A DNA stretch of 64,000 nt from a virus (IMGVR_UViG_3300044811_000050); one strand, 5' to 3'. Positions 26,643 to 57,193 are shown, counted from the stretch's first letter. Notes: a model not told the origin generated them from the sequence alone. Numbers and translations are program-made.

Positions 26643-26685
26643 AGGTTCTGTAAGGCACCACCAGGACCGAACCGGAGGTCTTCCG

Positions 26686-27180
26686 ATGACCCGCTACGAC
26701 GCGCAGAACCAGCCAGCCGATCTGTTCGACAGGTACGGCCTGTACGCCCGCTACGACGCGTCCAGCCAGACGTACGACCGGGACCGCGCTCGGAGTCGTC
26801 CCGTGCGCCAGGCCCGCCGGACCCAGCGCGCCGCCACCCCGAAGGGTTCGATCGTGGGGCGCCGGCTGTGGATCGTCGGCCTGCTGGAGCTGCTCTACAT
26901 CATCTTCTTCATCCTGGCGCCGGCCATGCAGGGTGCCGAGATGGCGGACGGCGCCACCGGCGGGGTCCTGGGCTTCCTGTTCTTCACCGCACTCGGCACC
27001 TTCGCCACCAGCTTCCTGGTGTGGTTCGCCCGCAGGGACGACGAATCGGGCGGCGTGTGGTCCCGCAACGCCCACACGGCGTTCCGGCTGGGCCTGCCGA
27101 TCATCGGCACCACCTACCTCGCCTACAAGGGCAGCGTGGGTGTCGCCCGGCACCTGCACCGCGTAATCACCAAGGACTGA
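26686..27180 (+). CDS. Membrane protein (about 3 TM)
   Basis: CCGAACCGGAGG leader before ATG 26686; three hydrophobic segments. Confidence 0.75.
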   Translation: MTRYDAQNQPADLFDRYGLYARYDASSQTYDRDRARSRPVRQARRTQRAATPKGSIVGRRLWIVGLLELLYIIFFILAPAMQGAEMADGATGGVLGFLFFTALGTFATSFLVWFARRDDESGGVWSRNAHTAFRLGLPIIGTTYLAYKGSVGVARHLHRVITKD

Positions 27181-27248
27181 CGTGCCTGCCATCTCCGCCG
27201 TGAGCCCGCCTCAAGAGGTGAGGGGCGACTCACGGCGGGAGGCTGTTT

Positions 27249-28037
27249 ATGCCCAACGCGGTCGACGTGTTGGCGGGTGGTGGCATCGCTCGTGCGGCCG
27301 AAGTGATCGAGCTGGCCGGGGCGGCCAAGCTGGAGCTGGCCTGCGCGGTGGTGCTGCTGCTGAAGGAGAGCGGCGGCGGGGCGAACCTGTTCGGCCACGA
27401 CGGGGTGCCCGACGGTGGTCAGTACGTCAAGGGCGGCCCGGTGGATCAGGCCAGCTACGCCCGGTACAAGGCGTGGCGCCAAGCCGGCTCCGGCCGGATG
27501 CAGGGCGTCGGACCCTGCCAGCTGACCTACTACACCATCCAGGACCAAGCCGACGCCCGTGGCGGCTGCTGGGACTGGCGGGTGAACTGCGCGGTCGGCT
27601 TCGACCTGCTGGCCACCCAGATCCGGACCAAGGGCGTGCAGGACGGCTTCCGGGCCTACAACGGCGCGGGGCCGGCGGCCGAGGCCTACGGCCGGGACGC
27701 GATGGCCCGGCTCGGGATCTGGCGACCCCTGCTTTCCGGGGTCTCCACGACGGTCTTGGTCTCCAACGTCACCCCGGCCTCCAGCGGCGCGGACAGCTTG
27801 CCGGACCTGGCCTACGGGTTGATGAACAACCCGGGCGTGGCCAGCCTCCAGCGCTTCCTCAACGCCTACAACTGGCGTCCCGCGCTGCCGCTGCTGCCGG
27901 CGACCGGGAACTACCTGGATCAGACGGTCAACGTGCTCCGGCAAGCGCAGGCCCAGATGGGCGTGCGGGGAGGCGACGGCCGCAACGTGGGACCGGCGAC
28001 CAAGGCCGCGCTGTGGCGGCGCGGCTGGAGAGGCTAA
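27249..28037 (+). CDS. Endolysin-like protein (lysozyme-like domain + peptidoglycan-binding domain)
   Basis: KESGG, GVGPCQLT, AYNG motifs; C-terminal VASLQRFLN..GPATKAAL. Confidence 0.75.
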   Translation: MPNAVDVLAGGGIARAAEVIELAGAAKLELACAVVLLLKESGGGANLFGHDGVPDGGQYVKGGPVDQASYARYKAWRQAGSGRMQGVGPCQLTYYTIQDQADARGGCWDWRVNCAVGFDLLATQIRTKGVQDGFRAYNGAGPAAEAYGRDAMARLGIWRPLLSGVSTTVLVSNVTPASSGADSLPDLAYGLMNNPGVASLQRFLNAYNWRPALPLLPATGNYLDQTVNVLRQAQAQMGVRGGDGRNVGPATKAALWRRGWRG

Positions 28038-28046
28038 GGAGAGACC

Positions 28047-28202
28047 ATGATCGTGTTCGGAGTGATCTTGCTATTGATCGGCTGGCTGACCGGGATCGGC
28101 ATCCTCTACACCGTGGGGGCGATCCTGCTGGTGGTCGGCCTGGTTCTGCTGCTGCTCGGCTCGGTGGGCCGGGGCATTGGCGGGCGGCGCTGGTACTACT
28201 GA
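28047..28202 (+). CDS. Small 2-TM membrane protein (DUF6131-like)
   Basis: AAGGAG RBS; MIVFGVILLLIGWLTGIGILYTVGAILLVVGLVLLLLGSVGRGIGGRRWYY; below the ORF-track cutoff. Confidence 0.75.
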   Translation: MIVFGVILLLIGWLTGIGILYTVGAILLVVGLVLLLLGSVGRGIGGRRWYY

Positions 28203-28861
28203 TGAAGCTCCGCGCGTGTCTGCCCGCTGTGGCGCTGACCGTCCTGCTGGCCGCGTGCGGCTCAGCTCCGGTGGTGTCGACTCCAGCGCCAGCGCAGGGA
28301 TTCAGCGCGCCAGCATCAACGACCGGGTTCGGCACGGCGGTGCCGCCGATCACTCCTGCGGTGATCGTGCTGCCGGCGTCGATCCACGTCACCGGCACGT
28401 ACCCGAAGACCTGCCATGCGATCAACCTGGGTGGCGGCGCGCTGGGTCCGGACCCGAGGTGCACCCCGGGCGCGGCCACGGCGGCGGTCACCCAGGCCAA
28501 CATCAAGACGACGATCTGCAACCCGAGTTGGCGGACCGGCTCGATCCGGGCCCCGCAGTCGGAGACCGGCCGGGTCAAGAAGCTGGCCATGATCGCCTAC
28601 GGCCTGCCCGCCAGCTCGATCGGCACCACCGAGCTGGACCACCTGGACTCGCTGGCGTTGGGCGGGTCCAACGACGTGCGCAACCTCTGGCCCGAGCCCA
28701 GCGACATCCCCGGCGCCGGGTTCCGCAACCGCAAGGACGACGTGGAGAGCAAGTTGCACGCGGCGGTCTGCCGCGCGCTGCGGCCGGTCCTACTGGCCGA
28801 CGCGCGTGCCGCGCTGGCCGCGAACTGGACCACGGCGCTGACCCGGTTCGGCCTGAAGTGA
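28202..28861 (+). CDS. Lipoprotein with HNH-like nuclease domain
   Basis: Signal peptide with lipobox LAAC; ELDHLDSLALGGSNDVRNLWPEP..KDDVE. Confidence 0.75.
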   Translation: MKLRACLPAVALTVLLAACGSAPVVSTPAPAQGFSAPASTTGFGTAVPPITPAVIVLPASIHVTGTYPKTCHAINLGGGALGPDPRCTPGAATAAVTQANIKTTICNPSWRTGSIRAPQSETGRVKKLAMIAYGLPASSIGTTELDHLDSLALGGSNDVRNLWPEPSDIPGAGFRNRKDDVESKLHAAVCRALRPVLLADARAALAANWTTALTRFGLK

Positions 28862-28877
28862 TCGAAGGGATACGGGA

Positions 28878-29627
28878 GTGAGACACCTCAGCCAGAGCTG
28901 GCGGATGGCACGGGTCGGAGCCACCGGCGCGCGGTTCCAGCACTTTTTCCTGCCCGAGGACCCGGACGAGGCCCATCGCGCGTTGGTACACCTGACCCGC
29001 ACCGCGCACCGACGCGTGGCCGCCGGCAGCTACGAGCACGGCCGGCTGCACGACCTGGTGGCCAACGAGGGGTTCAGCCACCACCCGCTGCACGGCGCCG
29101 CGCCCAGCACCGGCTACATGGCCGCCTACGACGCCCCGGAGGGCTCCGGGCAGGCCGTGACACACCACATCAGCCAGATCACCCCGGAGCACATCGCGGC
29201 GCACCGAGCGGCCATCTCCGAGCACCTCGATAAGGGGGCTTATCAGGGCGGATGGCACGACACCGCCGACGGGAATGTCTACCTGGACGCCTCGCACCAC
29301 TTCGACGACAAGCATTCGGCGCTGAACTTCGCCGGGCACCAGCAGCAGAAGGCGATCTTCAACCTGCATGACTTCTCCGAGCACTTCCTGAACCCCCGGC
29401 AGGACCCGCTGGCGATGAAGGACCACGAGGCGTGGAAGGCCCGTTACGCCGACACCGGCACCGAGCCGCACCCGGCGTTCCACAGCTACGCGCACCGCTA
29501 CCCGAACACCCCCGAGCAGGACGAACATTGGAACCTGCACAGCAAGGGCGCGATGGCCGGCCGCCCGGTCGGGCAGTTCCGCTCCGCGCGCTACGTGGAA
29601 GATCAGCTCCGTAGGCGGCGGTCATGA
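28878..29627 (+). CDS. His-rich hypothetical protein
   Basis: Long ORF; GYMAA..YQGGWHD..VYLDAS..QKAIFNL core. Confidence 0.7.
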   Translation: MRHLSQSWRMARVGATGARFQHFFLPEDPDEAHRALVHLTRTAHRRVAAGSYEHGRLHDLVANEGFSHHPLHGAAPSTGYMAAYDAPEGSGQAVTHHISQITPEHIAAHRAAISEHLDKGAYQGGWHDTADGNVYLDASHHFDDKHSALNFAGHQQQKAIFNLHDFSEHFLNPRQDPLAMKDHEAWKARYADTGTEPHPAFHSYAHRYPNTPEQDEHWNLHSKGAMAGRPVGQFRSARYVEDQLRRRRS

Positions 29628-31633
29628 GGGTCGCTAGCAATGACCTGCCCGGTGGCGCGGAGTTCCACTTCACCCCGAGCCCGGCCCGACACATCCACCA
29701 CGAGCTGGAGCTGCATGCCCGGGGCCAGCAGCTGGGCAAGCTCTCCTGGGGCCAGGACGGCGATATCAGCGGCGTGGAGGTGCACCACCAGCACCGGCGC
29801 CAGGGGATCGCCACCGCGCTCTACACCCGGGCGCACGAGCTGTCCCGCGAGCACCGCATCGAGCCGCCCGGCGCCTCGGTCTTCCAGACCGGCGCCGGCC
29901 ACGCCTTCCGGACCAGCTTCGACGTGGGCGAGCGGCCCGACGTCAGCCACATCCCCACCCACCTGCACCGAGGCGCCGGGGAGCACGACACCGACCTGCA
30001 CGAGCACCTGATCAAACACCACTACCCCGCCTCGGCGGACATGGTGCACAGCTGGGACCAAGAGACCGCCGAGAAGGCCCACGACCAGATCAGCCGGTTC
30101 AGCCCGTGCGGCTGGGGCAAGACCGGAGCGATGGAGGGCGACGCGATGGCAAGTGACGCCGACCAGCTCAAGTTCCACCACGAGGAGTGGCAGTCCGGCG
30201 GCTCGCTCTACCCGAACGAGGAGAGGATCACCGCGCACCACCCGGAGCGCGGCGCGGTGGGCTCCGTGCACTTCCTGCGGGGCAAGCGGATCAACTCACC
30301 GATCCTGATCAAGAAGCTGGATATCGGCAAAGATCACCGGCGGCGCGGTTACGGCTCGGCCCTGATGGACCAGCTCCAGGCCCAGTACCCGAAGGCCAAG
30401 ATCAACCACGGGGACCGCACCGACGACGGCAAGGCCTGGTGGAAGAGCTACGGCCAGGGCGCGGACCGGCGAGGTCGGACCAGCAGCCGCCCTTTTGACC
30501 ATGCGGCACGACTCGGCGACGGCCGGATCTGCCAGGGCTGTGCCGGGATCGGTGAGCTGCACGACGGTCACGAGTGTGGAGCTTGCGACGGGTCCGGCCG
30601 CGACCCCGAGTGCATCTGCGGCCGAGAGGTGGCCAAGCAACCCGGCGAGGACTGGTGGTCGCACCTGGACGGCTCGATCAGCCACGACTACGAGGACAAG
30701 GTGCCGCAGGACGAGCACGGCCCCCTCGGGGTGGCCGACTGCATGCGGATGCTGGGCAAGACCGAGCTGCCTACCAAGAGGCTGTTCGGCCCGACCTACG
30801 GACTCGACCACCGGCTGTTTGACGGGGACTGCCTGCGCGACGACGTCACCGAGTACGTGCTGGGCACCCTGGGTCGGTTCTGGGAGCCGCTGTACGGGCC
30901 GAACTGGCGCAAGTGGGCCCGGGTGTACCTGGCCGGCTCGGAGGCCTCTGAGTGGACCTCAGAGACGCTGGAGGGCAACAACGACTTCGATGTGCTGATC
31001 GGCATCGAGTACGACGACATGCGCGACGACATGAAATCCCGGCCGGGGCTGGACACGCTGTTCGGGATGATGAGCGACGAGCAGGTCACCAACGCGCTGA
31101 ACCAGCAGTTCCGGGCCGGGCTGATCCCGCACACCGACCCGGTGATGATCTCCATCGACGGCCAGGAGACCGGCCCCTGGAGCAACACCTGGTATGTGAA
31201 CCAGGACAGCTGGGACATCACCAAGATCAAGCCCTACGCGGCCTACGACGTCACCAACCACCGGTGGGCGGTGCGCCCGCCGCACCTGCCGAGTTGGGAT
31301 ATCAGCCAGTTCCCCGAGGGCCACGCGCTGGTGCAGGAATGCAAGGCGGTGGAGGCCTACGTGCGCGCCGTGCTGCGCCTGCCCGAGCCTTACCGGGCCC
31401 AGCAGGCCGACTCGCTCTGGAAGCACCTGCACGGTGACCGCAGCCGGGCGTTCGGCCCGCAGGGCGAGGGCTGGTACGACCCGGGCAACGTGCTGGAGAA
31501 GTTCCTGGACCAGAAGGGCATCTGGGAGCCCCTCGCCCAGGCCCACTTCGACGCGGTGGCCGACCCCAGCCGGCTGCTCGCTCCGAGTGACTGGTCGAAC
31601 GACCCCGTCTCGGTTACGGCGCCGCCTCGTTGA
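29624..31633 (+). CDS. Multidomain protein: two GNAT domains, Zn-binding segment, Pol-beta nucleotidyltransferase
   Basis: VHHQHRRQGIATALY and IGKDHRRRGYGSALM acetyl-CoA motifs; CxxCxGxG twice; LAGS..DFDVLI. Confidence 0.75.
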   Translation: MRVASNDLPGGAEFHFTPSPARHIHHELELHARGQQLGKLSWGQDGDISGVEVHHQHRRQGIATALYTRAHELSREHRIEPPGASVFQTGAGHAFRTSFDVGERPDVSHIPTHLHRGAGEHDTDLHEHLIKHHYPASADMVHSWDQETAEKAHDQISRFSPCGWGKTGAMEGDAMASDADQLKFHHEEWQSGGSLYPNEERITAHHPERGAVGSVHFLRGKRINSPILIKKLDIGKDHRRRGYGSALMDQLQAQYPKAKINHGDRTDDGKAWWKSYGQGADRRGRTSSRPFDHAARLGDGRICQGCAGIGELHDGHECGACDGSGRDPECICGREVAKQPGEDWWSHLDGSISHDYEDKVPQDEHGPLGVADCMRMLGKTELPTKRLFGPTYGLDHRLFDGDCLRDDVTEYVLGTLGRFWEPLYGPNWRKWARVYLAGSEASEWTSETLEGNNDFDVLIGIEYDDMRDDMKSRPGLDTLFGMMSDEQVTNALNQQFRAGLIPHTDPVMISIDGQETGPWSNTWYVNQDSWDITKIKPYAAYDVTNHRWAVRPPHLPSWDISQFPEGHALVQECKAVEAYVRAVLRLPEPYRAQQADSLWKHLHGDRSRAFGPQGEGWYDPGNVLEKFLDQKGIWEPLAQAHFDAVADPSRLLAPSDWSNDPVSVTAPPR

Positions 31634-34411: not shown

Positions 34412-34522
34412 AGATCGAGTCGCCGGGTTGTAGGGCCGCCGACGCACGCTCTTATGTGCTCTGTAGATGAGCTGCCCTCGGGCACCCCACGAGGTTCATT
34501 CGATCGGAGCAGAGACGACTGG

Positions 34523-34564
34523 CTGACGGAATGACTTGGTCCTGTCAACCTCAGGCGGTACGGT
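34523..34564 (+). promoter_or_regulatory. Repeat promoter/operator element
   Basis: CTGAC-N16-GTCAA-N10-TACGGT, then CCGAACCGAACCGGAGG. Confidence 0.75.
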
Positions 34565-34606
34565 AGGTCGACCAAGCTCTTTCCGAACCGAACCGGAGGT
34601 TCTCTG

Positions 34607-34948
34607 ATGACCCGATCCATCGTTGCCGTCGACCCCGACGCGTTGACCACCTACGTGCGCCGCACCCAGATCGCTGTGCGGGTACATGCCCGCGACGGCT
34701 TCGTGGTCGGCACCCTGATCCGCGTGAAGTACACCCCCGAGGGCGCCACGAAGGATGCCCTGCGGTGGGCGGCCCGCTGCTCCCCGATGGCGTTCTCCAC
34801 CAGCGGACTGGGCATCGTGCCCAAGTCGCTCTACGCGCCGGTGCCGGGTTCGGTCTACTTGCCCGGGCGGCACACCACCCAGCTGGCCGCCCAGCTGGAG
34901 CTGGAGAGCTACCTGCGCGAGCGCGACGCGCCCGGCCTGGGCACCTGA
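34607..34948 (+). CDS. Hypothetical protein
   Basis: Follows repeat promoter and leader. Confidence 0.7.
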   Translation: MTRSIVAVDPDALTTYVRRTQIAVRVHARDGFVVGTLIRVKYTPEGATKDALRWAARCSPMAFSTSGLGIVPKSLYAPVPGSVYLPGRHTTQLAAQLELESYLRERDAPGLGT

Positions 34949-34968: not shown

Positions 34969-35010
34969 ATGACAAAAAGCCTTGCCGCTGGCAGGGTGGT
35001 CGTGTAGCTT
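34969..35010 (+). promoter_or_regulatory. Repeat promoter/operator element driving the tRNA array
   Basis: ATGAC-AAAAAGCCTTGCCGCT-GGCAG-N10-TAGCTT. Confidence 0.7.
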
Positions 35011-35161: not shown

Positions 35162-35172
35162 CGCTAGAGCAA

Positions 35173-35256: not shown

Positions 35257-35274
35257 CGCGAGACAACTGAACAC

Positions 35275-35930: not shown

Positions 35931-35955
35931 CAAACGCTCGTGCGCACGAGCGTCA

Positions 35956-40218: not shown

Positions 40219-40318
40219 GTGACATGCCCCCTTCGAAGTGGGCGGGCGACGTTACAGCCGGATGGGGTGAATGTGATGGATTGCGCGTGATTGCACTCGA
40301 CAGCCCGAGGCAACTCGC

Positions 40319-40360
40319 CTGACGAAAACCCTTGGTGGTGTCAGGGTCATCGGGTACTGT
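40319..40360 (+). promoter_or_regulatory. Repeat promoter/operator element (consensus copy)
   Basis: CTGAC-GAAAACCCTTGGTGGT-GTCAG-N10-TACTGT. Confidence 0.85.
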
Positions 40361-40401
40361 CGGATCTGTCAGCTAGACCGAGTCCGAACCGGAGGACCCT
40401 C

Positions 40402-41154
40402 GTGAACGTCACCAACATCGCCACCGACCACCCGAAGCTCGCCCAGATCCGCGCCCTGCTGGCCAAGGCCGAGTCGACCGAGTTCCCCGAGGAGCGCGAC
40501 GCGCTTCAGGCCAAGGCGTTCGCCCTGCTGGCCAAGTACGGCATCGACGAGGCGCTGGCCTACGCCGAGGACCACCGCGACGAGACCCCGACCACCGTCG
40601 ATATCAAGATCGACAACCCGTACTCGCACCGCAAGGCCAACCTGCTGGCCTGGATCGGCAACGCGCTGGGCTGCAAGAACGTCACCTGGAGCCACGGCAA
40701 GCAGATCACCCACGTGGTGCTCTACGGCTTCGCCTCCGACCTGGAGCGCGCCGAGATGCTCTACACCTCGCTGCTGCTACAGGCCACCAACCAGCTCGTG
40801 CACATCACCCCGCCGTGGCACTCCAACGACACCACCCTGGCCTACCGCAACGCCTGGTTCCAGGGCTTCGCCATCACCGTGGCCAAGCGCATCCAGCAGG
40901 CCGAGCAGGGCGCCCGCCAGGACGCCGTACAGGCCGACGCCGGCCCCGTCGGCACCTCCGTGGAGCTGGTGCTGGTCGAGCGTAAGGACCGGGTGCAGCG
41001 CTACTTCGAGGAGGCCAACCCCAAGGTCAAGATGCGCAAGTACAGCAAGTCCCGCTCCCGGGACGGCCGCAACGAGGGCATCGAGGCCGGCCGGCGCGCC
41101 GACATCGGCCAGCGCCGGGTGGACAACCCGAGCCGGCGCGCCGTCGGATCCTGA
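40402..41154 (+). CDS. DUF2786-domain protein
   Basis: LAQIRALLAKAESTEFPEERDALQAKAFALLAKYGID; YRNAWFQGFA; GIEAGRRADIG. Confidence 0.8.
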   Translation: MNVTNIATDHPKLAQIRALLAKAESTEFPEERDALQAKAFALLAKYGIDEALAYAEDHRDETPTTVDIKIDNPYSHRKANLLAWIGNALGCKNVTWSHGKQITHVVLYGFASDLERAEMLYTSLLLQATNQLVHITPPWHSNDTTLAYRNAWFQGFAITVAKRIQQAEQGARQDAVQADAGPVGTSVELVLVERKDRVQRYFEEANPKVKMRKYSKSRSRDGRNEGIEAGRRADIGQRRVDNPSRRAVGS

Positions 41155-41192
41155 CGAAAACCCTAGGTGCTGTCAGGGTGAGCTGGTATGGT
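41151..41192 (+). promoter_or_regulatory. Repeat promoter/operator element
   Basis: CTGAC-GAAAACCCTAGGTGCT-GTCAG-N10-TATGGT; contains upstream stop codon. Confidence 0.85.
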
Positions 41193-41232
41193 TCACCTTG
41201 ACAGCAACACCCCGTCCGCACCGGAGGACACC

Positions 41233-41625
41233 ATGACGATCACCATCCGCGCCGCGAAGCTGGCGCTCGGTATTGGTCGCCCCGCCGAGTCCTATCCGCA
41301 TCGGCCCTCTGACCGCCGCCTGTTCCGGTCCGCGCACCTGAAGTCTTGGTCGCACCGGATGCGGTTCGGGTGGGTGCTCAGCTGGGACGGCCCGTACCGG
41401 CATCGCGCCATCGGTATCGCGGGCTCGGACTGGGACAACGGGGACTGGCTGGGCGGTCAGAGTTGGCACAAGCACGGCCCCTTCGTCGTCTGCCGATCCG
41501 GCCGGCGTGGCTCGCTGCGCAGCGACCGCCGGTTCACCCGCGTGATGGGCTGCACCTGCCCGCAGCGTGGCCTGCTCTGGCCGATCGGCCACACCCACCC
41601 CGCCGACTGCCCCATCAACGACTGA
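41233..41625 (+). CDS. Hypothetical basic Trp/His/Cys-rich protein
   Basis: CCGCACCGGAGG leader. Confidence 0.65.
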   Translation: MTITIRAAKLALGIGRPAESYPHRPSDRRLFRSAHLKSWSHRMRFGWVLSWDGPYRHRAIGIAGSDWDNGDWLGGQSWHKHGPFVVCRSGRRGSLRSDRRFTRVMGCTCPQRGLLWPIGHTHPADCPIND

Positions 41626-42017: not shown

Positions 42018-42067
42018 GCCCCCACCGATAGTCCCCCGACAACCCTGATCGAACCGGAGGTCAAACC

Positions 42068-42355
42068 ATGTCCGTCACCGTCAACATCGTGCTCAGCTAC
42101 GCGGAGGTCGTTACGGCGATCAAGAAGGGCGAGAAGGTCACCCTGCTCCGTGAGGATGGCACCAAGATCATTGGTACCCTGCGGAATCTCACCCCGGCCG
42201 AGGGCAGCGCCTACCACCTGCCGGCCGGCGGAGACCTGCGCACCGCCTGGGTGTGGATCACCACCATCTCGGGCTTCGAAACCTGGATCAAGTTCACCGA
42301 GCTGGTGGAGCTGCGCGAGAACGGTGCGGTCGCCTGGCACATCTACTCCAGCTAG
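42068..42355 (+). CDS. Hypothetical protein (SH3/Sm-like beta barrel possible)
   Basis: CGAACCGGAGG leader. Confidence 0.7.
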   Translation: MSVTVNIVLSYAEVVTAIKKGEKVTLLREDGTKIIGTLRNLTPAEGSAYHLPAGGDLRTAWVWITTISGFETWIKFTELVELRENGAVAWHIYSS

Positions 42356-42372
42356 AGATCGACACGATGAGC

Positions 42373-42414
42373 CTGACGAAAACCCTTGGTGGTGTCAGGC
42401 TCGTCGTGTATCGT
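42373..42414 (+). promoter_or_regulatory. Repeat promoter/operator element
   Basis: CTGAC-GAAAACCCTTGGTGGT-GTCAG-N10-TATCGT. Confidence 0.85.
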
Positions 42415-42454
42415 AAGCCTTGTTCGCACCACCGAGTCCGCACCGGAGGACATC

Positions 42455-42874
42455 ATGCCGATCCCCACCCAGGCCCAGGTCGTTGAGGCCGTTCGTCGGG
42501 CCTACGCCCAGGAGTGGCTGCGCCACACGCCGGGCTGGAAGTGCTCGGTGTCCGCTGCCAACGCCGGCTGGTACGTCCGCAACGGCATCAACACCACCCA
42601 GGTGTTCAACGAGGCCGCCCGCGCTGGGCTGGTCGACATCACCTACGACGGCGGCAACATGGTCTTCGTCGTGCCGCTGGGCGCGCCGGACCGCAAGGAC
42701 CGCGAGTTCACCTGCTCCGCTTGCGGCCTGGAGGTGGCCAAGTATTTCCACGCTGATGGCGGGTTCACCTGGATCAGCAAGAAGAACACCCCCACCCTTT
42801 TCGGCGGCGAGGCGCCCGAGGGCTCCTGCTGGAAGTCCGCGAGCAAGACCCACGTCGTCAGCCAGGAGGCCTGA
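42455..42874 (+). CDS. Hypothetical protein with C-terminal zinc motif
   Basis: CCGCACCGGAGG leader; CSACG..C..H. Confidence 0.7.
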   Translation: MPIPTQAQVVEAVRRAYAQEWLRHTPGWKCSVSAANAGWYVRNGINTTQVFNEAARAGLVDITYDGGNMVFVVPLGAPDRKDREFTCSACGLEVAKYFHADGGFTWISKKNTPTLFGGEAPEGSCWKSASKTHVVSQEA

Positions 42875-43789: not shown

Positions 43790-43796
43790 CCACGCC

Positions 43797-43838
43797 CTGA
43801 CGAAACTCCTTGGCGCTGTCAGGGTTGTCTGATAGCGT
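43797..43838 (+). promoter_or_regulatory. Repeat promoter/operator element
   Basis: CTGAC-GAAACTCCTTGGCGCT-GTCAG-N10-TAGCGT. Confidence 0.85.
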
Positions 43839-43877
43839 AAGCCTTGTCAGACCGACCGAACCGCACCGGAGGTTCCG

Positions 43878-44174
43878 ATGTCCCGCACCGACCGCAGCCG
43901 CCCCACCCGCCGTCAGACCTGGATCGCTATCGAGCGTGACGCTCAGGGCAATGTTCGCCTCGCCTACGACGAGTTCGGCAACCCCGTCACCGAGGTCGTT
44001 GACCGCGAGGTTGGTCACCGCAAGGGCCTGAACCCCCGCAAGTCCCAGACCGCCTACCACCGCACCGCCAGCAACCGCCTCGACCGCCGTGACGCCCGCC
44101 GCCAGCTGCGCCGTGACCCCGACTCGGTCTCCAACCGGGCCCGCAAGAACGACTCGGTCTGGATGGCCACCTGA
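43878..44174 (+). CDS. Small Arg-rich protein
   Basis: CCGAACCGCACCGGAGG leader. Confidence 0.75.
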   Translation: MSRTDRSRPTRRQTWIAIERDAQGNVRLAYDEFGNPVTEVVDREVGHRKGLNPRKSQTAYHRTASNRLDRRDARRQLRRDPDSVSNRARKNDSVWMAT

Positions 44175-44180
44175 TCTATC

Positions 44181-44223
44181 CTGACGGAATACCTTGTCGG
44201 GTGCCAGGCACGACGCGTACAGT
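44181..44223 (+). promoter_or_regulatory. Repeat promoter/operator element
   Basis: CTGAC-N17-GCCAG-N10-TACAGT. Confidence 0.75.
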
Positions 44224-44266
44224 CGGGCCTGGCACACGCATGACCAAGCCGAACCGGAGGCACTCC

Positions 44267-44536
44267 ATGGCACGCACGACCCAGAAGGATCGAGACGCGG
44301 CACTTCACCGCGAGGTGGCGCTGAAGCGCGCTCTGCTCGCCGCCCTGAGCCACCGGGACCTGTTGGTCCTGGCGAGGGCCGCCGAGGCCTACGCGCAGAT
44401 CCTGAAGGTGGTCGACACGCACCACCCGGACCCGGACATCCGCGACGACGCGGCCCGGCTGCCGGAGCTGGCCCAGATCTTGTTGGAGGCCAACGCCGCC
44501 CGGGTCTTCCTGGAGGAGGGTGCCTCCGGTGGCTGA
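44267..44536 (+). CDS. Hypothetical protein
   Basis: CCGAACCGGAGG leader. Confidence 0.7.
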   Translation: MARTTQKDRDAALHREVALKRALLAALSHRDLLVLARAAEAYAQILKVVDTHHPDPDIRDDAARLPELAQILLEANAARVFLEEGASGG

Positions 44537-46111: not shown

Positions 46112-46337
46112 ATTCCCGCTCGACCGCAGCGCTATGTTCAGCGCCCTGCTGGAGCTGAGCCCGAAGTACGGGAAGCTCGACAGCAAGGTGGGCGAGCGGA
46201 TCACCACCGAGGCCCTGGCGGCCTGGCGGGACACGACCGGCGGCAACATGTTCGACTTCGCCAAGGAGTGGATCAAGACCGAGCGCAAGGACCTGCTGCC
46301 GCTGCACACCGGGAGGCCCTGGTCGAATCGCCCCTGA
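46095..46337 (+). CDS. Hypothetical protein
   Basis: AGGAGG RBS; stop codon lies within next repeat. Confidence 0.7.
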   Translation: MPTRREFPLDRSAMFSALLELSPKYGKLDSKVGERITTEALAAWRDTTGGNMFDFAKEWIKTERKDLLPLHTGRPWSNRP

Positions 46338-46375
46338 CGAAAACCCTTGGTGATGTCAGGCTGGTCGTGTAGATT
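46334..46375 (+). promoter_or_regulatory. Repeat promoter/operator element
   Basis: CTGAC-GAAAACCCTTGGTGAT-GTCAG-N10-TAGATT. Confidence 0.85.
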
Positions 46376-46413
46376 GGTCCTTGCAACACCGAATCCGAAC
46401 CGGAGGATTGATC

Positions 46414-46965
46414 ATGGGCTGGATCACCATGCACCGCGACAAGGGCCAGAGCAACGACGAGTTCTTCCGCGCCGAGTTCCCGAACACGCTGGGACGCGAC
46501 GGCGAGATCCTCGCCTCGTCCACCATCAAGGGTGTCTACTACGCCGCCGTGCGCACCCACGAGACAGGCCAGGTCTGGGCGTTCATCGCCCTCACTTCTC
46601 GGGCACCGCGTAGCCACCACAACTTCGGCTACAAGGACCAGGACGAGACCATGGGCATCGGCGATTACGACGCCCCGGCCAAGGTCCTGGATCTGCTCAC
46701 CGAGACCGACAACGAGTACGCCCTGGAGTGGCGCGCCGCGTGCCGCAAGCGGGCCGCCACCAAGGCCGCGCTGCCGAAGCTGAAGACCGGCGACCGGATC
46801 CGGCTGCCCCGGGGCGCGACGTTCATCGTCGGCGGCGCCCGGGTGGACGCCTTCGAATTCGAGTTCTGCCACCACAGCACGTTCCGGGCGCATGTCGAGG
46901 GGCACAGCTTCCTGGTCCGGCTGCCCAACTGGAAGACCAGCGGCGTCGAGCTGGTGACGGCCTGA
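46414..46965 (+). CDS. DUF6927-like protein
   Basis: MGW.., VYYAAVR, FGYKDQDETMG..DAPAKVLDLLT..YALEWRAACR. Confidence 0.75.
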   Translation: MGWITMHRDKGQSNDEFFRAEFPNTLGRDGEILASSTIKGVYYAAVRTHETGQVWAFIALTSRAPRSHHNFGYKDQDETMGIGDYDAPAKVLDLLTETDNEYALEWRAACRKRAATKAALPKLKTGDRIRLPRGATFIVGGARVDAFEFEFCHHSTFRAHVEGHSFLVRLPNWKTSGVELVTA

Positions 46966-49399: not shown

Positions 49400-49484
49400 C
49401 GGGGAGGCTCCAGGGTCGGGGGATGAACCACCGGGAAGATAACCGGATGATCCTGAGGATGGCCCGCCGGCTGGTCAAAGTCCG

Positions 49485-49526
49485 TTGACGAAAACCCTTG
49501 GCCCTGTCAGGGTGCTCGTGTAATGT
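49485..49526 (+). promoter_or_regulatory. Repeat promoter/operator element
   Basis: TTGAC-GAAAACCCTTGGCCCT-GTCAG-N10-TAATGT. Confidence 0.85.
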
Positions 49527-49532
49527 GAGCCC

Positions 49533-49681
49533 TGTTCGGAAAACTCCACAGAGCGAAGCCGCAGCATGGCCGTGAGCGTCAGACACCCTGAGGGGCCAAC
49601 CTGGCAATGCTCGGGAAGACGTGGCCGACATACCGGAATCACACCCCCTGCTCCCGCTTAGCTCTTGGAGTTTTCCGAACA
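49533..49681 (+). ncRNA. Candidate ~150-nt structured RNA beginning at predicted +1
   Basis: Perfect 16-bp terminal stem TGTTCGGAAAACTCCA/TGGAGTTTTCCGAACA plus nested stems. Confidence 0.6.
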
Positions 49682-49711
49682 CCTGAGTCCGAACCGCACC
49701 GGAGGTTCCCC

Positions 49712-50653
49712 GTGAACGTCACCACCGCTTCCCCCGCCGAGATCGACACCGAGATCTACCGGCTGGAGGTCGAGCTGGGCCGCGCGAGCGTCAGCGTGGA
49801 CAGCGCCCGCGACATCGTGCGCAGGGCCATCGGCCAGGAGGTCACCCGCGAGCGCAGCATCGTCCGAGGCCGCAGCCAGCACCGCGAGGTGTGGCCGACC
49901 AGCTGGGTCACGGCCGAGCAGACCGCCCGCGAGCTGGACCCGGCCACCGAGTCCGCCGACTGGCGCCTGGTGCACTACAGCGGCGTCAAGACCGTCGGTG
50001 CCGCGCTGGCCGCCCTGGACGCCCTGGAGGCCAAGCGGACCGAGCTGCGCGCCGCGCTGGCCCCGCTGTACGCCCGCTACAACGCCGAGCGCTGGAGCCG
50101 GGTCTTCCTGGTCACCAACAGCAACGGGCACGTGCACAGCCACACCCGCTGCCGCAACTGCTACGACACCACCACCTACTACTGGGTGACCGAGCTGTCC
50201 GGCGCCACCGACGCCGAGGTTGTCGCCCAGGCCGGCGGCCAGAGCTGCCTCACCTGCTACGACTCGGTCCGCGAGCAGATCGACGCCAACCGGGAGTGCC
50301 GGATCGAGGAGCCGGCCAAGCGCAAGTCCCGCGAGGAGCGCGAAGCCGCCGCCAAGGCCCGTGCCGAGAAGGCCGCCGCCAAGGGCATCACCACCCCGGA
50401 CGGGCAGCCGCTGGTCATCCAGAAGCGGGGTGACCGCCACGGCGAGACGATCAAGACCGCGCGGGCCGCTCAGATCGAGCTGGTGAGCTTGCTCTGGTAC
50501 GCCAAGCACTACGGCGCCAACTCGGCCCAGCCGGAGGCGGTGGCGGCCCTGGAGGCGGCCCTGGCCCACAAGAACGGCACCACGGTGGAGCAGGAGCGCG
50601 AAGCCGCTCAGGTGCGCCTGGCGGCCCGCGAGAAGCGGGAGGCCCGCTACTGA
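49712..50653 (+). CDS. Hypothetical phage protein with zinc motif
   Basis: Leader CCGAACCGCACCGGAGG; WSRVFLVTNSNGHVHSHTRCRNC..CLTC. Confidence 0.75.
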   Translation: MNVTTASPAEIDTEIYRLEVELGRASVSVDSARDIVRRAIGQEVTRERSIVRGRSQHREVWPTSWVTAEQTARELDPATESADWRLVHYSGVKTVGAALAALDALEAKRTELRAALAPLYARYNAERWSRVFLVTNSNGHVHSHTRCRNCYDTTTYYWVTELSGATDAEVVAQAGGQSCLTCYDSVREQIDANRECRIEEPAKRKSREEREAAAKARAEKAAAKGITTPDGQPLVIQKRGDRHGETIKTARAAQIELVSLLWYAKHYGANSAQPEAVAALEAALAHKNGTTVEQEREAAQVRLAAREKREARY

Positions 50654-51015: not shown

Positions 51016-51390
51016 ATGGATGCCCCACCGAAAGTGATGATCTCTCTAGGCGAGGCCGTGGCGATCCTGCACGGGATCGCGCTGTTCCCCGGCTTGACCA
51101 TGCCGGGGCTCGCCGAGGCGATGAGCTTCCTGATCCAACGCGAGCTGCGGACCCCCTCGGCGATGCGCGCGGCGATGCCGCTGTGCCGGCGTGTGCTGCT
51201 CGACCAGCACCCCTGGCTGGATCGGATCATCGTGCCGTTCAACCGGCTCGTGCAGGGTGACCAGGTCTACCTGTGGTGCTGGCGCGACGCCGTGGAACAT
51301 CGCCACCGCGAGCACCTGGTCGACGGGAAGAGCCTGGTGGTGGAGACGGTGGACGCCAGCGACGTGGTCTTCGAAGATCTTCTGGATTGA
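51016..51390 (+). CDS. Hypothetical protein
   Basis: AAGGGAG RBS; LLDQHPWL. Confidence 0.65.
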   Translation: MDAPPKVMISLGEAVAILHGIALFPGLTMPGLAEAMSFLIQRELRTPSAMRAAMPLCRRVLLDQHPWLDRIIVPFNRLVQGDQVYLWCWRDAVEHRHREHLVDGKSLVVETVDASDVVFEDLLD

Positions 51391-51391
51391 C

Positions 51392-51433
51392 GTGACGAAA
51401 ACCCTTGGCGCTGTCAGGCTACCCGTGTAATGT
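51392..51433 (+). promoter_or_regulatory. Repeat promoter/operator element
   Basis: GTGAC-GAAAACCCTTGGCGCT-GTCAG-N10-TAATGT. Confidence 0.85.
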
Positions 51434-51474
51434 GAGCCCTGTCAGCAAGACCCGCGCCGAACCGGAGGCACGAG

Positions 51475-52020
51475 ATGAGCACCACCACCCGCCGTCAGAT
51501 TGGTCGCAACACCAACCGCGAGGGCCAGATCGCCAAGGCCATCGAACTGATCGCGGAGATGCGCGAGATCAACCCCGAGTGGGTCGAGGAGCGGCGCGCC
51601 GAGATGAACGGCCGCTGGACCCAGGGCACCTGCACCTTCGAGTACGTCTCCGATCAGATCACCGCGATGATCGACGCCAAGCGGGCCAGCCGCCAGGTCT
51701 CCGCCCACCAGAACGTCCCGATGGTTTCCTCCGGCCGCTACGCCTTCGGCGAGGAGGGCAACGTCAAGTACTACCGGGTGGTCAATGACGGAGGCAGCTA
51801 CAACGTCTTCCGCTACCAGTCCGACACCCAGCACCAGATGACCGCCCCCATCGCCATCCTCAACGTGCTCCGCGCCATCGCCCGGGACACCGAGCCGGTC
51901 GCGGCTTTGCGGTGGGCCACCGGGATGAAGCGCTGCTGGGCCTGCGGCAAGAAGATCCACGACGAGAGCAACCCCTACTACAGCCAGGGTCTCGGACCGG
52001 ATTGCGGCAAGAAGGGCTGA
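51475..52020 (+). CDS. DUF6011-like zinc-finger protein
   Basis: CWACGKKIHD..S..GLGPDCGKK. Confidence 0.7.
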   Translation: MSTTTRRQIGRNTNREGQIAKAIELIAEMREINPEWVEERRAEMNGRWTQGTCTFEYVSDQITAMIDAKRASRQVSAHQNVPMVSSGRYAFGEEGNVKYYRVVNDGGSYNVFRYQSDTQHQMTAPIAILNVLRAIARDTEPVAALRWATGMKRCWACGKKIHDESNPYYSQGLGPDCGKKG

Positions 52021-52176: not shown

Positions 52177-52575
52177 GTGCCGATAATTCAACGTACCGAG
52201 AAGCTGGATGACATTGAGTACGGCAAGGGCAACGAGGTCCCGGCCACCGAGGAACGCACCCTCGCGGTCGGCGGCCAGCAGTACCGCACCTACCTGACCG
52301 CCGAGAATGCGAAAACCTTCGACGACGACCTGGCCCGGTGGACCGAGCACGCCGAGAAGGTGTCCACCAGCAAGGCCCGCCGGCAGGGTCACAGCCATGG
52401 CGGGGGTGCTGGGACCAGCAACGTGGCGCGCCGGCCGCAGGACAAGTCCGCCGCCATCCGCGCGTGGGCGATGACGCAGGAGTTCAACCCGCCGGTTTCG
52501 GAACGAGGACGCATCCCGGACAAGGTGGTCCAGGCCTACTACAAGACCTTCCCCGAGGAGCGGGACGCGTCTTGA
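52177..52575 (+). CDS. lsr2: Lsr2-like nucleoid-associated protein
   Basis: DDI..AT..VGGQQY..LTAENA dimerisation domain; IRAWA..VSERGRIPDKVVQAY AT-hook domain. Confidence 0.88.
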   Translation: MPIIQRTEKLDDIEYGKGNEVPATEERTLAVGGQQYRTYLTAENAKTFDDDLARWTEHAEKVSTSKARRQGHSHGGGAGTSNVARRPQDKSAAIRAWAMTQEFNPPVSERGRIPDKVVQAYYKTFPEERDAS

Positions 52576-55797: not shown

Positions 55798-55923
55798 CGA
55801 CACCGTTGCGCCCCCGTCACACCTTGATCATGAACCCGGACAACAAACCCGTCACGCATACCTAGTTTTCTCGTTATCAGATGGTGAGTGATCACCTACC
55901 CCGACCGAATTGAGGCTCCCCAC

Positions 55924-56136
55924 ATGAGTGCTATCGACCTAGTCATAACCACCCGGCTCCCCGAGCTGCTGCAAGCCATGGTCAACGCCCTGCCCGAGGT
56001 GAGGTGCGAGGTGGTCCAGGGCAGCTTCGACGGCACCAAGTGCACGCTGCGGGTGCACACCAACACTCGCTTCGCGCACTACCGGATCGTTCAGCAGGGC
56101 TACGGGGACGTCCTGGAAGTGCGGCCGGCGGCATGA
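55924..56136 (+). CDS. Small hypothetical protein
   Basis: GAGG RBS. Confidence 0.55.
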   Translation: MSAIDLVITTRLPELLQAMVNALPEVRCEVVQGSFDGTKCTLRVHTNTRFAHYRIVQQGYGDVLEVRPAA

Positions 56137-56390
56137 GCCTCATCTACCGGGTCAGCCGCAAGGTCTCCCCCTGGATCTGGGTGCCCCTCGCCACGATCAC
56201 CATCGTGGTCAGCAGCTACGTGGGGGTCATGGCCACGCTGTACGTCACCGAGTCCCATGGCTGGTGGTGGCTCCCGCCCTGGATTTTCGGACTGGTGGGC
56301 GCGATCGTCGGCTACGCGGTGGCCGCGATCCTGATATTCGCTCCGCTGGGGATGTTGCGACGACGGAGGCAGGTCGATGAGCAGCGGTGA
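56133..56390 (+). CDS. 2-TM membrane protein
   Basis: ATGA overlap; two hydrophobic helices. Confidence 0.65.
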   Translation: MSLIYRVSRKVSPWIWVPLATITIVVSSYVGVMATLYVTESHGWWWLPPWIFGLVGAIVGYAVAAILIFAPLGMLRRRRQVDEQR

Positions 56391-56775
56391 CCAGGGCTGG
56401 GAGCAGCGCATGGCCGACCGGGCCAAGGAGCGCGAGCGGGTCCGCCGAGAGCGGGACCCCATCGAGCGCCGGGAGCGTTACGAGCGGCGCAACCCGGACC
56501 TGCTCTGGCTCAATGGCTATCCCCGGGACGACCTGCGGCATGCCTGGGTGGTCGGCACCCGCCGCTGCATCGGCTGCGGCTCCATCCAGGGCTGCGCGGC
56601 CTACGTGCTGGTGGAGGGTGCCGAGTATCCGCCGGAGCCCACCTGGCCGTTCACCCCGGATGCCTGCCCGGTGTGCCTGAGTTCGGAGCCCTGGACGATG
56701 CTCCAGGTCGACCTGGGCGAGCCCGGCTCGACCAGCTATCCCCGGACGGAGCTGCGGGAGCTGCGCGATGAGTAG
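56377..56775 (+). CDS. Hypothetical protein with CxxC pairs
   Basis: GGAGG RBS; CIGC, CPVC. Confidence 0.6.
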   Translation: MSSGDQGWEQRMADRAKERERVRRERDPIERRERYERRNPDLLWLNGYPRDDLRHAWVVGTRRCIGCGSIQGCAAYVLVEGAEYPPEPTWPFTPDACPVCLSSEPWTMLQVDLGEPGSTSYPRTELRELRDE

Positions 56776-56947
56776 TCGGTCAGGAGTGAAGCGCGCCGAC
56801 ACCCGGCCTGGCTACGCGTACTGGAAGGCCAAGCGGCCCGAGGAGTGTGTGGCGTGCCCGGACCCGATCGAGGTGGGCCAGGAGATCATGAAGGCCTATG
56901 CCGGCGGGTATGTGCACGTGATCTGTCCGCATTTGTCCCGCAGCTGA

Positions 56948-56989
56948 CTGACCGAAATGCTTCGTCCTGTCAGGGTGAGCTGCTACGGT
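56948..56989 (+). promoter_or_regulatory. Repeat promoter/operator element
   Basis: CTGAC-N16-GTCAG-N10-TACGGT, then CCGAACCGGAGG. Confidence 0.75.
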
Positions 56990-57046
56990 GGACCTGTTCA
57001 CCACGCACTCACTACCGACTCACCAGACCGAACCGGAGGTCTTCCG

Positions 57047-57193
57047 ATGACTAGGCGCGACAACGACAGGGCGCGCGGGCGCCTCTACCCCCAGTCCCTC
57101 GGCACCCGCTACGGCTGGCTGCTGATCCTCCTCAGCTGCCTGGCCATGGCCGTGGTGGGCGCGGTGGCGCTGCACGCGGCGGGTGTCAGGTGA
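57047..57193 (+). CDS. Small 1-TM protein
   Basis: Leader before ATG 57047. Confidence 0.6.
   Translation: MTRRDNDRARGRLYPQSLGTRYGWLLILLSCLAMAVVGAVALHAAGVR

What the first reader, a model, noticed from the sequence alone, without database searches (positions are those of the whole stretch)
26665..57052. Conserved CCGAACC-GGAGG start-associated leader, with shared first codons across unrelated genes
Seen: (CCGAA)n-CCGGAGG or CCGCACCGGAGG precedes starts at 26686, 32514, 34607, 40402, 41233, 41664, 42068, 42455, 43878, 44267, 46414, 49712, 51475 and 57047. Conservation extends well 5' of the SD as CCGAA/CCGAG/CCGCA pentamer repeats. GACCGAACCGGAGGTCTTCCGATGAC (26 nt) is identical before 26686 and 57047. 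The genes at 40402 and 49712 both begin CGTGAACGTCACCA (VNVT) but are otherwise unrelated. Replication genes use ordinary RBSs. Inference: a translational enhancer or RNA-binding-protein site analogous to SAS elements, and evidence that promoter-leader units are swapped onto new ORFs.
Basis: partly seen in the sequence, partly recalled or inferred. Interest (0 to 1): 0.7.

Follow-up and report, generated by a model that had tools for sequence, protein, structure and literature searches.

The report
Hairpin ribosome-site tag on phage genes
A large uncultured actinobacterial phage puts the same 16-base RNA mini-hairpin, built around the ribosome-binding site, in front of the first gene of about 15 repeated promoter units; it is a new sequence variant of the still-unexplained "start-associated sequences" of mycobacteriophages, and whatever reads it is unknown.

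Summary
CCG(A/C)ACCGGAGG occurs 14 times exactly, always on the + strand and 5-8 nt before a start codon; chance would give about 3 even with one mismatch allowed. It is two separable things. (1) It is the 3' end of a ~90-nt repeated promoter/operator/leader cassette. (2) It is itself a small stem-loop: NNCC / GGN'N' closes an 8-nt loop G(A/C)AC(N)GGA, so GGA of the Shine-Dalgarno (SD) site sits in the loop and its last GG in the stem. Over 90 start-linked copies from six phages the closing pair is kept in 79 (40.5 expected), using five pair types, and two orthologue pairs show compensatory changes. Relatives with only 51-54% DnaE identity keep the tag but have different operators, and also use it with no promoter. 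It is not an extended SD, not a 16S helix-45 pairing site, and not a common host RBS context. The closest known kind is the cluster K SAS/ESAS system; it works alike but fails the sequence definition. The scan has already reported the same tag on another genome (e1-5837278), with the same reading. No RNA-binding protein, RNase or antisense RNA candidate was found.

The parts
160..254 (+). Cassette before the DinG-like helicase gene (start 252): promoter/operator 160-204, degenerate tag CCGAACCTGAGG 231-242
   Evidence: nhmmer promoter profile E 3.4e-6; sequence; Pfam Helicase_C_2; covariance model only 11.4 bits
26593..26688 (+). Cassette: promoter/operator 26593-26639, hairpin 26665-26680, start 26686
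   Evidence: 26.2 bits
32420..32516 (+). Cassette (weaker promoter match 32420-32468), hairpin 32494-32509, start 32514
34517..34609 (+). Cassette: promoter/operator 34517-34562, hairpin 34586-34601, start 34607
34970..35006 (+). Same promoter/operator type WITHOUT the tag, in front of the 23-tRNA array (35088-39790)
   Evidence: nhmmer E 6.2e-6; sequence; tRNAs
40313..40404 (+). Cassette: perfect operator CCTGAC-N16-GTCAGG 40318-40345, hairpin 40382-40397, GTG start 40402 (DUF2786/DUF7168 protein)
41147..41235 (+). Cassette, hairpin 41214-41229, start 41233
   Evidence: 30.1 bits
41642..41666 (+). Hairpin tag without promoter, before a 33-codon ORF (41664-41765)
42047..42070 (+). Hairpin tag (TCGAACCGGAGG; first stem pair becomes U-G) without promoter, start 42068
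42365..42457 (+). Cassette, perfect operator 42372-42399, hairpin 42436-42451, start 42455
43790..43880 (+). Cassette, hairpin 43859-43874, start 43878
44172..44269 (+). Cassette, hairpin 44247-44262, start 44267
46325..46416 (+). Cassette, perfect operator 46333-46360, hairpin 46393-46408, start 46414 (DUF6927 protein)
49481..49714 (+). Cassette with a long structured 5'UTR: promoter/operator 49481-49524, closed RNA domain about 49524-49677, hairpin 49692-49707, GTG start 49712
   Evidence: start supported by the N-terminus of the G011 orthologue
51382..51477 (+). Cassette, hairpin 51455-51470, start 51475
56943..57049 (+). Cassette, hairpin 57026-57041, start 57047 (48-codon ORF)
63720..63781 (+). 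Degenerate copy: operator-like inverted repeat, variant CCGAACCCGAGG 63761-63772, ATG 63779
   Evidence: covariance model 12.7 bits, within the noise range

Best explanation
The tag is an mRNA element of the start-associated-sequence (SAS) kind. It is a 16-nt stem-loop, 5'-NN-CC-G(A/C)AC(N)GGA-GG-N'N'-3', in which the SD site GGAGG is built into the hairpin: GGA lies in the 8-nt loop and the last GG in the 4-bp stem. It ends 5-8 nt before the start codon. In this phage it sits on the first gene of about 15 transcription units. Each unit is driven by a repeated housekeeping-sigma-like promoter (-35 TTGGYG, 17 nt, -10 TAnnnT, then a TTGTCAG box near +1). The -35 element is bracketed by the inverted repeat CCTGAC-N16-GTCAGG, which is probably an operator for a phage DNA-binding regulator. 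Shown here: the copy set, the strand and start linkage, the covarying stem, conservation in relatives that have different operators, and use of the tag without promoters. Inferred: the hairpin is a shared translation-initiation control site (a regulon-wide translational operator) that lets the first-gene class be translated efficiently and then shut off or cleaved together. It would be read by a sequence-specific factor, protein or RNA, that has not been identified. That it is an RNA-level SAS-like SD hairpin: about 0.8. That a dedicated trans factor reads it: about 0.5.
For: Copy set and chance level. Gene class: 15 of 47 genes with an upstream gap of at least 50 nt carry the tag, against 0 of 47 operon-internal genes (p = 1.6e-5). 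Stem: on 71 copies, 77.5% of cells pair against 62.7 +/- 1.4% in shuffles (0/500); the covariation score is 0.332 against 0.03-0.095 for slid partners. On 90 copies from six phages, -1/+13 pairs in 79 (40.5 expected) and -2/+14 in 57 (34.5 expected), with no signal at -3/+15. Compensatory changes between orthologues: window 49712 vs G011 (A-U to G-C) and window 40402 vs G003 (G-C to A-U). Thermodynamics: the hairpin is the minimum-energy fold at about -4.7 kcal/mol and dominant at 80% of sites. It also appears in the fold of the long 49712 leader. Separable from the promoter: G001, G003/G011 and the window have three different operator types but the same tag, and relatives place the tag directly after stop codons. 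The tRNA-array promoter lacks it. Orientation follows genes: opposite-strand copies precede opposite-strand ORFs. Selection: the counts by strand are 23 vs 7 in G001, 36 vs 2 in G003 and 36 vs 2 in G011, despite 51-54% DnaE identity to the window. When one mismatch is allowed anywhere, variation falls almost only on loop position 7. Not a host feature: about 2-7 copies per Mb in five actinobacterial genomes, near control level, against about 220 per Mb here.
Against: No reader was found. Pfam searches found no bS21, CsrA, RegB or RegA homologue in the relatives. No RNA-binding or RNase domain was found among about 70 window proteins scanned. Anti-leader words are not enriched in the window (18 against 18 in the control). 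The stem is short and weak, so a purely cis role is possible. Copies within one genome are related by descent, which inflates the shuffle statistics. Invariance of most loop positions in my 71/90-site sets is partly by selection, because those positions were fixed in my search pattern. No transcript or expression data exist for this uncultured phage, so the promoter, the +1 position and the 'early' class are predictions.
Confidence: 0.55

Rival explanations
1. A cis-only 'insulated' ribosome-binding module. The weak local hairpin and the G-poor, C/A-rich surroundings keep the SD from being trapped in stronger structures of a 67% G+C mRNA and present GGA in a loop. No dedicated factor reads it.
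For: Leader initiation regions are uniformly weakly folded (-8.9 +/- 1.2 kcal/mol against -11.9 and -13.5) and G-poor (0.25 against 0.31-0.37, p = 5e-6). Codons 2-6 are ACC-rich (21% against 6%) and G-poor. The hairpin is only about -4.7 kcal/mol, easily opened by a 30S subunit. No reader was found.
Against: A structure-avoidance role does not need fixed loop letters. Yet with one mismatch allowed anywhere, G3, A5 and C6 essentially never change while position 7 varies freely, across phages about 50% diverged. The folding difference from other first-in-unit genes is not significant (p = 0.20). SD strength is no different from other genes.
Confidence: 0.25
2. A DNA-level site for a phage regulator, like the asymmetric 'stoperators' of cluster A mycobacteriophages, that merely overlaps the SD.
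For: Stoperators are also short, asymmetric, oriented with transcription and placed between genes (my own knowledge; contrasted with SAS in PMC3203893). The cassette clearly does hold DNA operators, and HTH proteins are encoded at 45593 and 21592.
Against: The tag is always fused to the SD at zero distance and ends 5-8 nt from the start. Flank positions covary so as to keep Watson-Crick or G-U pairing with five pair types, which a protein half-site would not require. The operators differ between phages while the tag stays the same.
Confidence: 0.07
3. No function of its own: the leader is carried along as promoter-leader cassettes duplicate or homogenise by recombination.
For: Some cassettes are near-identical: 40318/42372/46333 have perfect operators, and 49481 and 51382 share the -10 region. 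There is a 26-nt identity before 26686/57047 and a 14-nt identity at 40402/49712.
Against: The same tag is kept in phages with different promoters, and at promoter-less sites. Orthologues keep it with compensatory stem changes. The VNVT pair differs in spacer and loop letter, so there is no continuous conversion tract.
Confidence: 0.05
4. Extra pairing with 16S rRNA: an extended SD, or pairing or mimicry involving helix 45 (CCGCACC is the complement of GGUGCGG).
For: The 16S 3' end ...CCGUACCGGAAGGUGCGGCUGGAUCACCUCCUUUCU was verified in many actinobacteria. The duplex of CCGCACCGGAGGU with helix 45 plus the tail computes to -17.5 kcal/mol.
Against: The 5' flank adds only 0.2-0.5 kcal/mol to pairing with the free tail. 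Helix 45 itself folds at -17.5 kcal/mol and would have to open. The order of the two complementary blocks is inverted relative to a continuous duplex. This window mostly uses CCGAACC (10 of 14), which mismatches helix 45 (-10.8 kcal/mol, no gain). An earlier follow-up on another genome also rejected this idea (e1-5837278).
Confidence: 0.03

Closest known systems
Start-associated sequences (SAS) with extended SAS (ESAS) of cluster K mycobacteriophages (Pope et al. 2011, PMC3203893; survey 2025, PMC12699233)
   Same: A short asymmetric motif containing the SD core, a few nt before start codons. One orientation. 11-19 copies per genome, on non-structural genes of unrelated families. Rare in host genomes. 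About half are accompanied by upstream inverted repeats whose consensus differs between sub-lineages while the SAS stays the same. Function untested.
   Different: A different sequence (GGGATAGGAGCCC there), a different phage group (60-kb temperate siphoviruses there, ~150-kb uncultured phages here), and a different position of the inverted repeats (here they overlap the promoter -35 or -10). Here the stem covaries. In phage Anaya the possible GGG/CCC stem never varies and its flanks show no covariation, so pairing is neither supported nor refuted there.
T4 RegB and RegA control of early mRNAs (review PMC3014915)
   Same: One factor acts on the initiation regions of about 30 early mRNAs. [quoted passage not shown]
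   Different: No RegB or RegA homologue was detected (inconclusive). The RegB consensus is A-rich 3' of GGAG, whereas here it is GGAGG followed by U/C/A. RegA sites are unstructured and A+U-rich.
CsrA/RsmA-type sites (GGA in the loop of a short hairpin overlapping the SD); described from my own knowledge
   Same: GGA is presented in a small hairpin loop that overlaps the SD.
   Different: Two letters rather than one lie between CA and GGA. No CsrA gene in five relatives. From my own knowledge, actinobacteria are not known to have CsrA.
The same tag reported by this scan on another genome (e1-5837278), and other start-linked mini-hairpins in uncultured phages (e1-3259141, e1-5845554, e1-5887481)
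   Same: e1-5837278 describes (AG)CCGCACNGGAGG before about 31 early genes of a large actinophage, folding into a tiny hairpin around the RBS.
   Different: This window uses mainly the CCGAACC loop variant and has its own operator type. Those notes are unchecked by me beyond what I re-derived here.

Membership tests
Cluster K SAS | Match to GGGATAGGAGCCC with at most 2 mismatches (definition used in PMC3203893 and PMC12699233) | tested here: not met
   The tag is CCG(A/C)AC(N)GGAGG and shares only the GGAG core
Cluster K SAS | Asymmetric motif containing the SD core, a few bp before start codons, in one orientation | tested here: met
   5-8 nt before the start; all copies on the + strand; opposite-strand copies in relatives precede opposite-strand genes
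Cluster K SAS | Restricted to non-structural genes of unrelated families | tested here: inconclusive
   All window copies precede small unknown, DUF or helicase genes, but only 64 of 157 kb was visible
Cluster K SAS/ESAS | A subset has upstream inverted repeats whose consensus differs between sub-lineages | tested here: met
   12 of 15 copies have CCTGAC-N16-GTCAGG. G001 has GTAGCA-N7-TGCTAC. G003/G011 have CACTACC-N5-GGGTAGTG
Cluster K SAS | Rare in host genomes | tested here: met
   2-7 per Mb, near control level, in five actinobacterial genomes. The true host is unknown.
Extended Shine-Dalgarno / 16S pairing | The conserved flank is complementary to the 16S 3' tail | tested here: not met
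   The flank adds only 0.2-0.5 kcal/mol
T4 RegB target | GGAG in an early-gene SD with GGA unpaired and the fourth G constrained | tested here: met
   Unpaired probability 0.68-0.92 for GGA and 0.09 for the fourth G; criterion taken from PMC3014915
T4 RegB target | A RegB-family nuclease is encoded, and the 3' consensus GGAGRAYARAA is present | tested here: not met
   No PF10715 match in five relatives (controls cannot ring, so absence is not proven). The sequence 3' of the tag is not A-rich.
CsrA/RsmA site | A CsrA-family protein is available | tested here: not met
   No PF02599 match in five relatives
Cluster A stoperator | Bound as double-stranded DNA by the phage repressor | not testable with these tools
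   RNA-type covariation argues against it

The most novel reading that the evidence does not exclude
The hairpin is the operator of a regulon-wide post-transcriptional switch. An undescribed phage RNA-binding protein, SD-specific endoribonuclease (RegB-like in action, unrelated in sequence) or antisense RNA recognises the G(A/C)AC(N)GGA loop on every first-gene mRNA and shuts the class off together. The same principle, an SD built into a mini-hairpin, would then explain the cluster K SAS, whose function has been unknown since 2011.
Probability: 0.3. Interest if true: 0.75.

Novelty: new variant of a known kind. Interest (0 to 1): 0.55.

Why it matters
Start-associated sequences have had no established function since 2011. 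This clade offers what cluster K lacks. The stem varies and covaries. The tag is conserved across phages about 50% diverged that changed their operators. There are promoter-less copies and a clean sub-clade distribution: six carriers (the window, three full-length relatives and two IMG/VR fragments) against at least 29 full-length or partial relatives without it. The 16-nt module is also small enough for direct reporter tests in Streptomyces or Mycobacterium smegmatis. If it sets or switches translation, it would be a compact part for gene expression in high-G+C hosts.

Tried and rejected
Extended SD and 16S helix-45 pairing or mimicry: rejected.

Longer conserved RNA structure in the 5'UTR: none; only the mini-hairpin was found.

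Alternative inner hairpin CCG/CGG: pair probability only about 0.07.

Phage-encoded bS21, CsrA, RegB or RegA: none found. The last two are inconclusive because no control genome can ring for phage-only families.

Antisense RNA against the leader, a lead from e1-5863373:
- No enrichment in the window.
- The near-copy at 43434-43445 is at chance level and mismatches a leader position that does not vary in any copy.
- The perfect antisense copy in G001 lies inside a 696-codon ORF.

Common host RBS context: rejected.

The consensus sigma-70 scan finds none of the cassette promoters. This is expected for the TAnnnT-type -10 elements typical of actinobacteria (my own knowledge), so the promoter assignment rests on the conserved -35/17 nt/-10 layout across four phages.

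Closer relatives could not be fetched:
- Both metagenome scans found nothing.
- The first IMG/VR protein scan found nothing.
- The 18-mer operator scan gave only two single, probably chance, hits.

Rfam: only tRNAs.
Full report
**What the window is**

The window is 67% G+C, with about 95 genes almost all on the + strand and 23 tRNA genes. It holds a replication module: DinG-like helicase, flap endonuclease, DnaC-like loader, DnaB, primase, DnaE and RecA. After the module come many small genes of unknown function. There is no nucleotide-level relative among deposited phages. The best cultured matches have about 30% identity in the helicase and DnaE. The window's DnaE lies on a 157,300-bp contig and belongs to a clade of ~150-kb uncultured phages. 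No whole genome is held for the window.

**Observation**

All 14 sites are as described.
- CCGMACCGGAGG occurs 13 times exactly, plus TCGAACCGGAGG at 42049. All copies are on the + strand.
- GGAGG ends 5-8 nt before ATG or GTG.
- With one mismatch allowed, 17 matches are found against 2.86 +/- 1.76 in shuffles.
- The 26-nt identity before 26686/57047 and the shared GTGAACGTCACCA of 40402/49712 are real. The two proteins are unrelated.

**The tag is the end of a larger cassette**

Aligning the upstream regions shows a ~90-nt unit. Its parts, in order:
- CCTGACGAAAACCCTTGGYGNTGTCAGG, an inverted repeat CCTGAC-N16-GTCAGG that brackets a -35-like TTGGYG;
- 17 nt after that hexamer, a TAnnnT -10 element;
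- 5 nt further, a (C/T)TGTCAG box;
- 23-28 nt after the end of the promoter-profile match, the tag.

The 28-mer occurs 6 times with at most 3 mismatches, against 0 expected. A profile of the promoter part alone finds 14 good copies.
- 160-204, before the helicase gene, with the tag variant CCGAACCTGAGG;
- 34970-35006, before the tRNA array, with no tag;
- 49481-49524, which is 170 nt upstream of the 49712 tag.

Two tags, at 41644 and 42049, have no promoter. The tag is found on 15 of 47 genes that follow a gap of at least 50 nt, and on none of 47 operon-internal genes (p = 1.6e-5).

**Relatives**

An alignment-based search gave 80 IMG/VR loci. Whole-record pattern searches gave these strand counts (tagged strand vs other strand; G001 and G003 with at most one mismatch, G011 exact):

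| Record | Size | DnaE identity to window | Strand counts |
|---|---|---|---|
| G001 | 155 kb | 54% | 23 vs 7 |
| G003 | 150 kb | 51% | 36 vs 2 |
| G011 | 155 kb | 48% | 36 vs 2 |

Controls gave 0-3, and 30 other relatives show nothing above control. A scan for the commonest 16-mer added two IMG/VR fragments with 6-7 same-strand copies each.

In the relatives the tag is CCGCAC(C/T/A)GGAGG. Their promoters differ from the window's:
- G001 has -35 TTGCTA inside GTAGCA-N7-TGCTAC.
- G003 and G011 (69% DnaE identity to each other) have -35 TTGAC(C/A) and the palindrome CACTACC-N5-GGGTAGTG over the -10.

All of them keep the -10 + 5 nt + TTGTCAG layout. In the relatives the tag also sits directly after the stop codon of the preceding gene, with no promoter (L086, L097, L118, L121, L122). 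Opposite-strand copies precede opposite-strand ORFs of at least 89 codons with GC3 0.91-0.95. So the tag is separable from the promoter, follows gene orientation, and has been kept while the operators were replaced.

**The tag is a mini-hairpin**

A consensus fold of 35 predicted 5'UTRs found no long structure. It did show that the letter just 5' of CCG and the letter just 3' of GGAGG covary.

On an ungapped alignment of 71 start-linked copies (A3), I tested the structure ..(((((........)))))..:
- 77.5% of cells pair, against 62.7 +/- 1.4% in shuffles (0 of 500).
- The covariation score is 0.332, against 0.114 in shuffles and 0.03-0.095 with slid partners.
- The closing pair is AU 30, GC 16, UA 10, GU 5, CG 1, and unpaired in 9.

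With 90 unique sites from six phages:
- -1/+13 pairs in 79 (40.5 expected);
- -2/+14 pairs in 57 (34.5 expected);
- -3/+15 pairs in 27 (21.6 expected; not significant).

C1-G12 and C2-G11 are nearly invariant, and the rare T at C1 or C2 gives a U-G pair.

Two orthologue pairs show compensatory double changes:
- window 49712 (..TASPAEIDTEIY) vs G011 (..ATPAEIDT): A-U against G-C at -1/+13;
- window 40402 (DUF2786, ..PKLAQIRA) vs G003 (..PKLAKVRS): G-C against A-U at -2/+14.

GACCGCACCGGAGGUC folds as ((((........)))) at -4.7 kcal/mol. In 36-nt context the inner pairs have probability 0.68-0.73, and the fold dominates at 80% of sites. GGA of the SD is unpaired (0.68-0.92) and the last GG is paired (unpaired probability 0.07-0.09).

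Caveats:
- Copies within a genome share descent.
- Most loop letters were fixed by my search pattern.
- The non-circular evidence for loop conservation is: with one mismatch allowed at any position, nearly all variants change position 7.

**What it is not**

- *Not an extended SD.* The 16S 3' end was verified in many actinobacteria, and the conserved flank adds only 0.2-0.5 kcal/mol of pairing to the tail. SD duplex energies of tagged genes (-12.4) equal those of other genes (-12.1 and -13.2).
- *Not helix-45 pairing.* The complementary blocks are in the wrong order for one duplex. Helix 45 would have to open (-17.5 kcal/mol). This window's main variant, CCGAACC, mismatches it.
- *Not a host habit.* Five actinobacterial genomes hold 2-7 copies per Mb, about the level of the reversed-pattern control, against about 220 per Mb here.

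**Other properties**

Tagged initiation regions are G-poor (0.25 against 0.31-0.37; p = 5e-6) and uniformly weakly folded (-8.9 +/- 1.2 kcal/mol). The fold difference from other first-in-unit genes is not significant. Codons 2-6 are 21% ACC against 6% elsewhere. GTG-AAC-G(T/C)C openings recur in G001 and G003.

The shared 'VNVT' therefore looks like part of a compositional preference rather than a swapped unit. The two leaders differ in spacer and loop letter, and the orthologues of both genes have other N-termini.

**Search for a reader**

- No bS21, CsrA, RegB or RegA family match in G001, G003, G011, G002 or G005.
- No RNA-binding or RNase domain among about 70 window proteins scanned.
- No enrichment of anti-leader words in the window.
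- A perfect antisense copy in G001 lies inside a long ORF.

About 93 kb of this genome could not be seen.

**Comparison with known systems**

The closest known kind is the cluster K SAS/ESAS system. It has the same placement, orientation, copy number and gene class. It is likewise rare in hosts. It shows the same pattern of a constant start-linked motif with lineage-specific upstream inverted repeats. Its function was still untested in 2025.

This tag fails the sequence definition of SAS, so it is a new variant, not a member. In phage Anaya the SAS could form a GGG/CCC stem with AUAGGAG in the loop (-1.9 kcal/mol). That stem never varies and its flanks do not covary, so the Anaya data neither support nor refute such a stem.

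In action, the nearest models are T4 RegA and RegB, which act on about 30 early initiation regions. RegB prefers GGA unpaired with the fourth G constrained, which is the geometry found here. There is no homologue, and the 3' context differs.

**Earlier notes of this scan**

After I had derived the hairpin, a look-up showed that the same tag was reported on another genome with the same reading (e1-5837278). It also showed that the promoter/operator cassette of this window was noted separately (e1-5744312, follow-up withheld). A lead from e1-5863373 (an antisense RNA loop) was tested here and found no support in the accessible sequence.

**Verdict**

This is a new sequence variant of a known but unexplained kind, with new structural evidence. 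The mechanism is inferred: it is most likely a shared translation-control hairpin on first-gene mRNAs, and a cis-only RBS insulator is the main rival.

Noticed in passing
window 34970-35006 and 35088-39790: A cassette-type promoter/operator without the leader tag sits about 80 nt before the 23-tRNA array, so the tRNAs probably belong to the same transcriptional regulon.
   Followed up: partly
window 49524-49677: The 170-nt 5'UTR of gene 49712 is closed by a perfect 12-nt inverted repeat (CGGAAAACTCCA / TGGAGTTTTCCG) and folds into a stable domain (-78 kcal/mol, z = -3.0). No Rfam family matches it.
   Followed up: partly
window 6398-7033, 43351-43790, 58144-58721, 63070-63760: Four stretches of 440-700 nt have no convincing coding frame (GC3 about 0.6, against about 0.9 in genes). 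They could hold non-coding RNAs or foreign genes. 43434-43445 carries an antisense near-copy of the leader, at chance level.
   Followed up: partly
window 45593-46111 and 21592-22323: Two helix-turn-helix proteins (HTH_23 plus AsnC/sigma region-4-like; Sigma70_r4_2-like) are candidates for the factor that binds the CCTGAC-N16-GTCAGG operator.
   Followed up: no
window cassettes; L084-L122, L244-L259: A (C/T)TGTCAG box 5 nt after the -10 element is shared by all four phages although their -35 and operator parts differ. It may mark the transcript start or a third operator half-site.
   Followed up: partly
window 52177-52575, 38838-39674, 33800-34411, 29624-31633: An Lsr2-like DNA-bridging protein, a cutinase (LysB-like) esterase, a sortase-domain protein and a 669-aa double-GNAT protein are encoded among the non-structural genes.
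   Followed up: no
L255 (G011) versus IMGVR_UViG_3300049259_000204 (L281/L291): Two close relatives share a near-identical promoter, operator and tag, but the N-terminus of the downstream ORF differs (MPQLKIYE against MTKIFRS). This is a possible case of ORF change behind a conserved leader.
   Followed up: no
L265 (Mycobacterium phage Anaya, JF704106): The cluster K SAS GGGATAGGAGCCC can form a 3-bp stem with the SD in a 7-nt loop. The stem is invariant, so covariation cannot test it.
   Followed up: partly
window 3780-3812: Gene 3810 (DUF7242) has only a decayed tag (tCGAACCaGAGa), while its orthologues in G001 and G003 carry CCGCACAGGAGG.
   Followed up: partly
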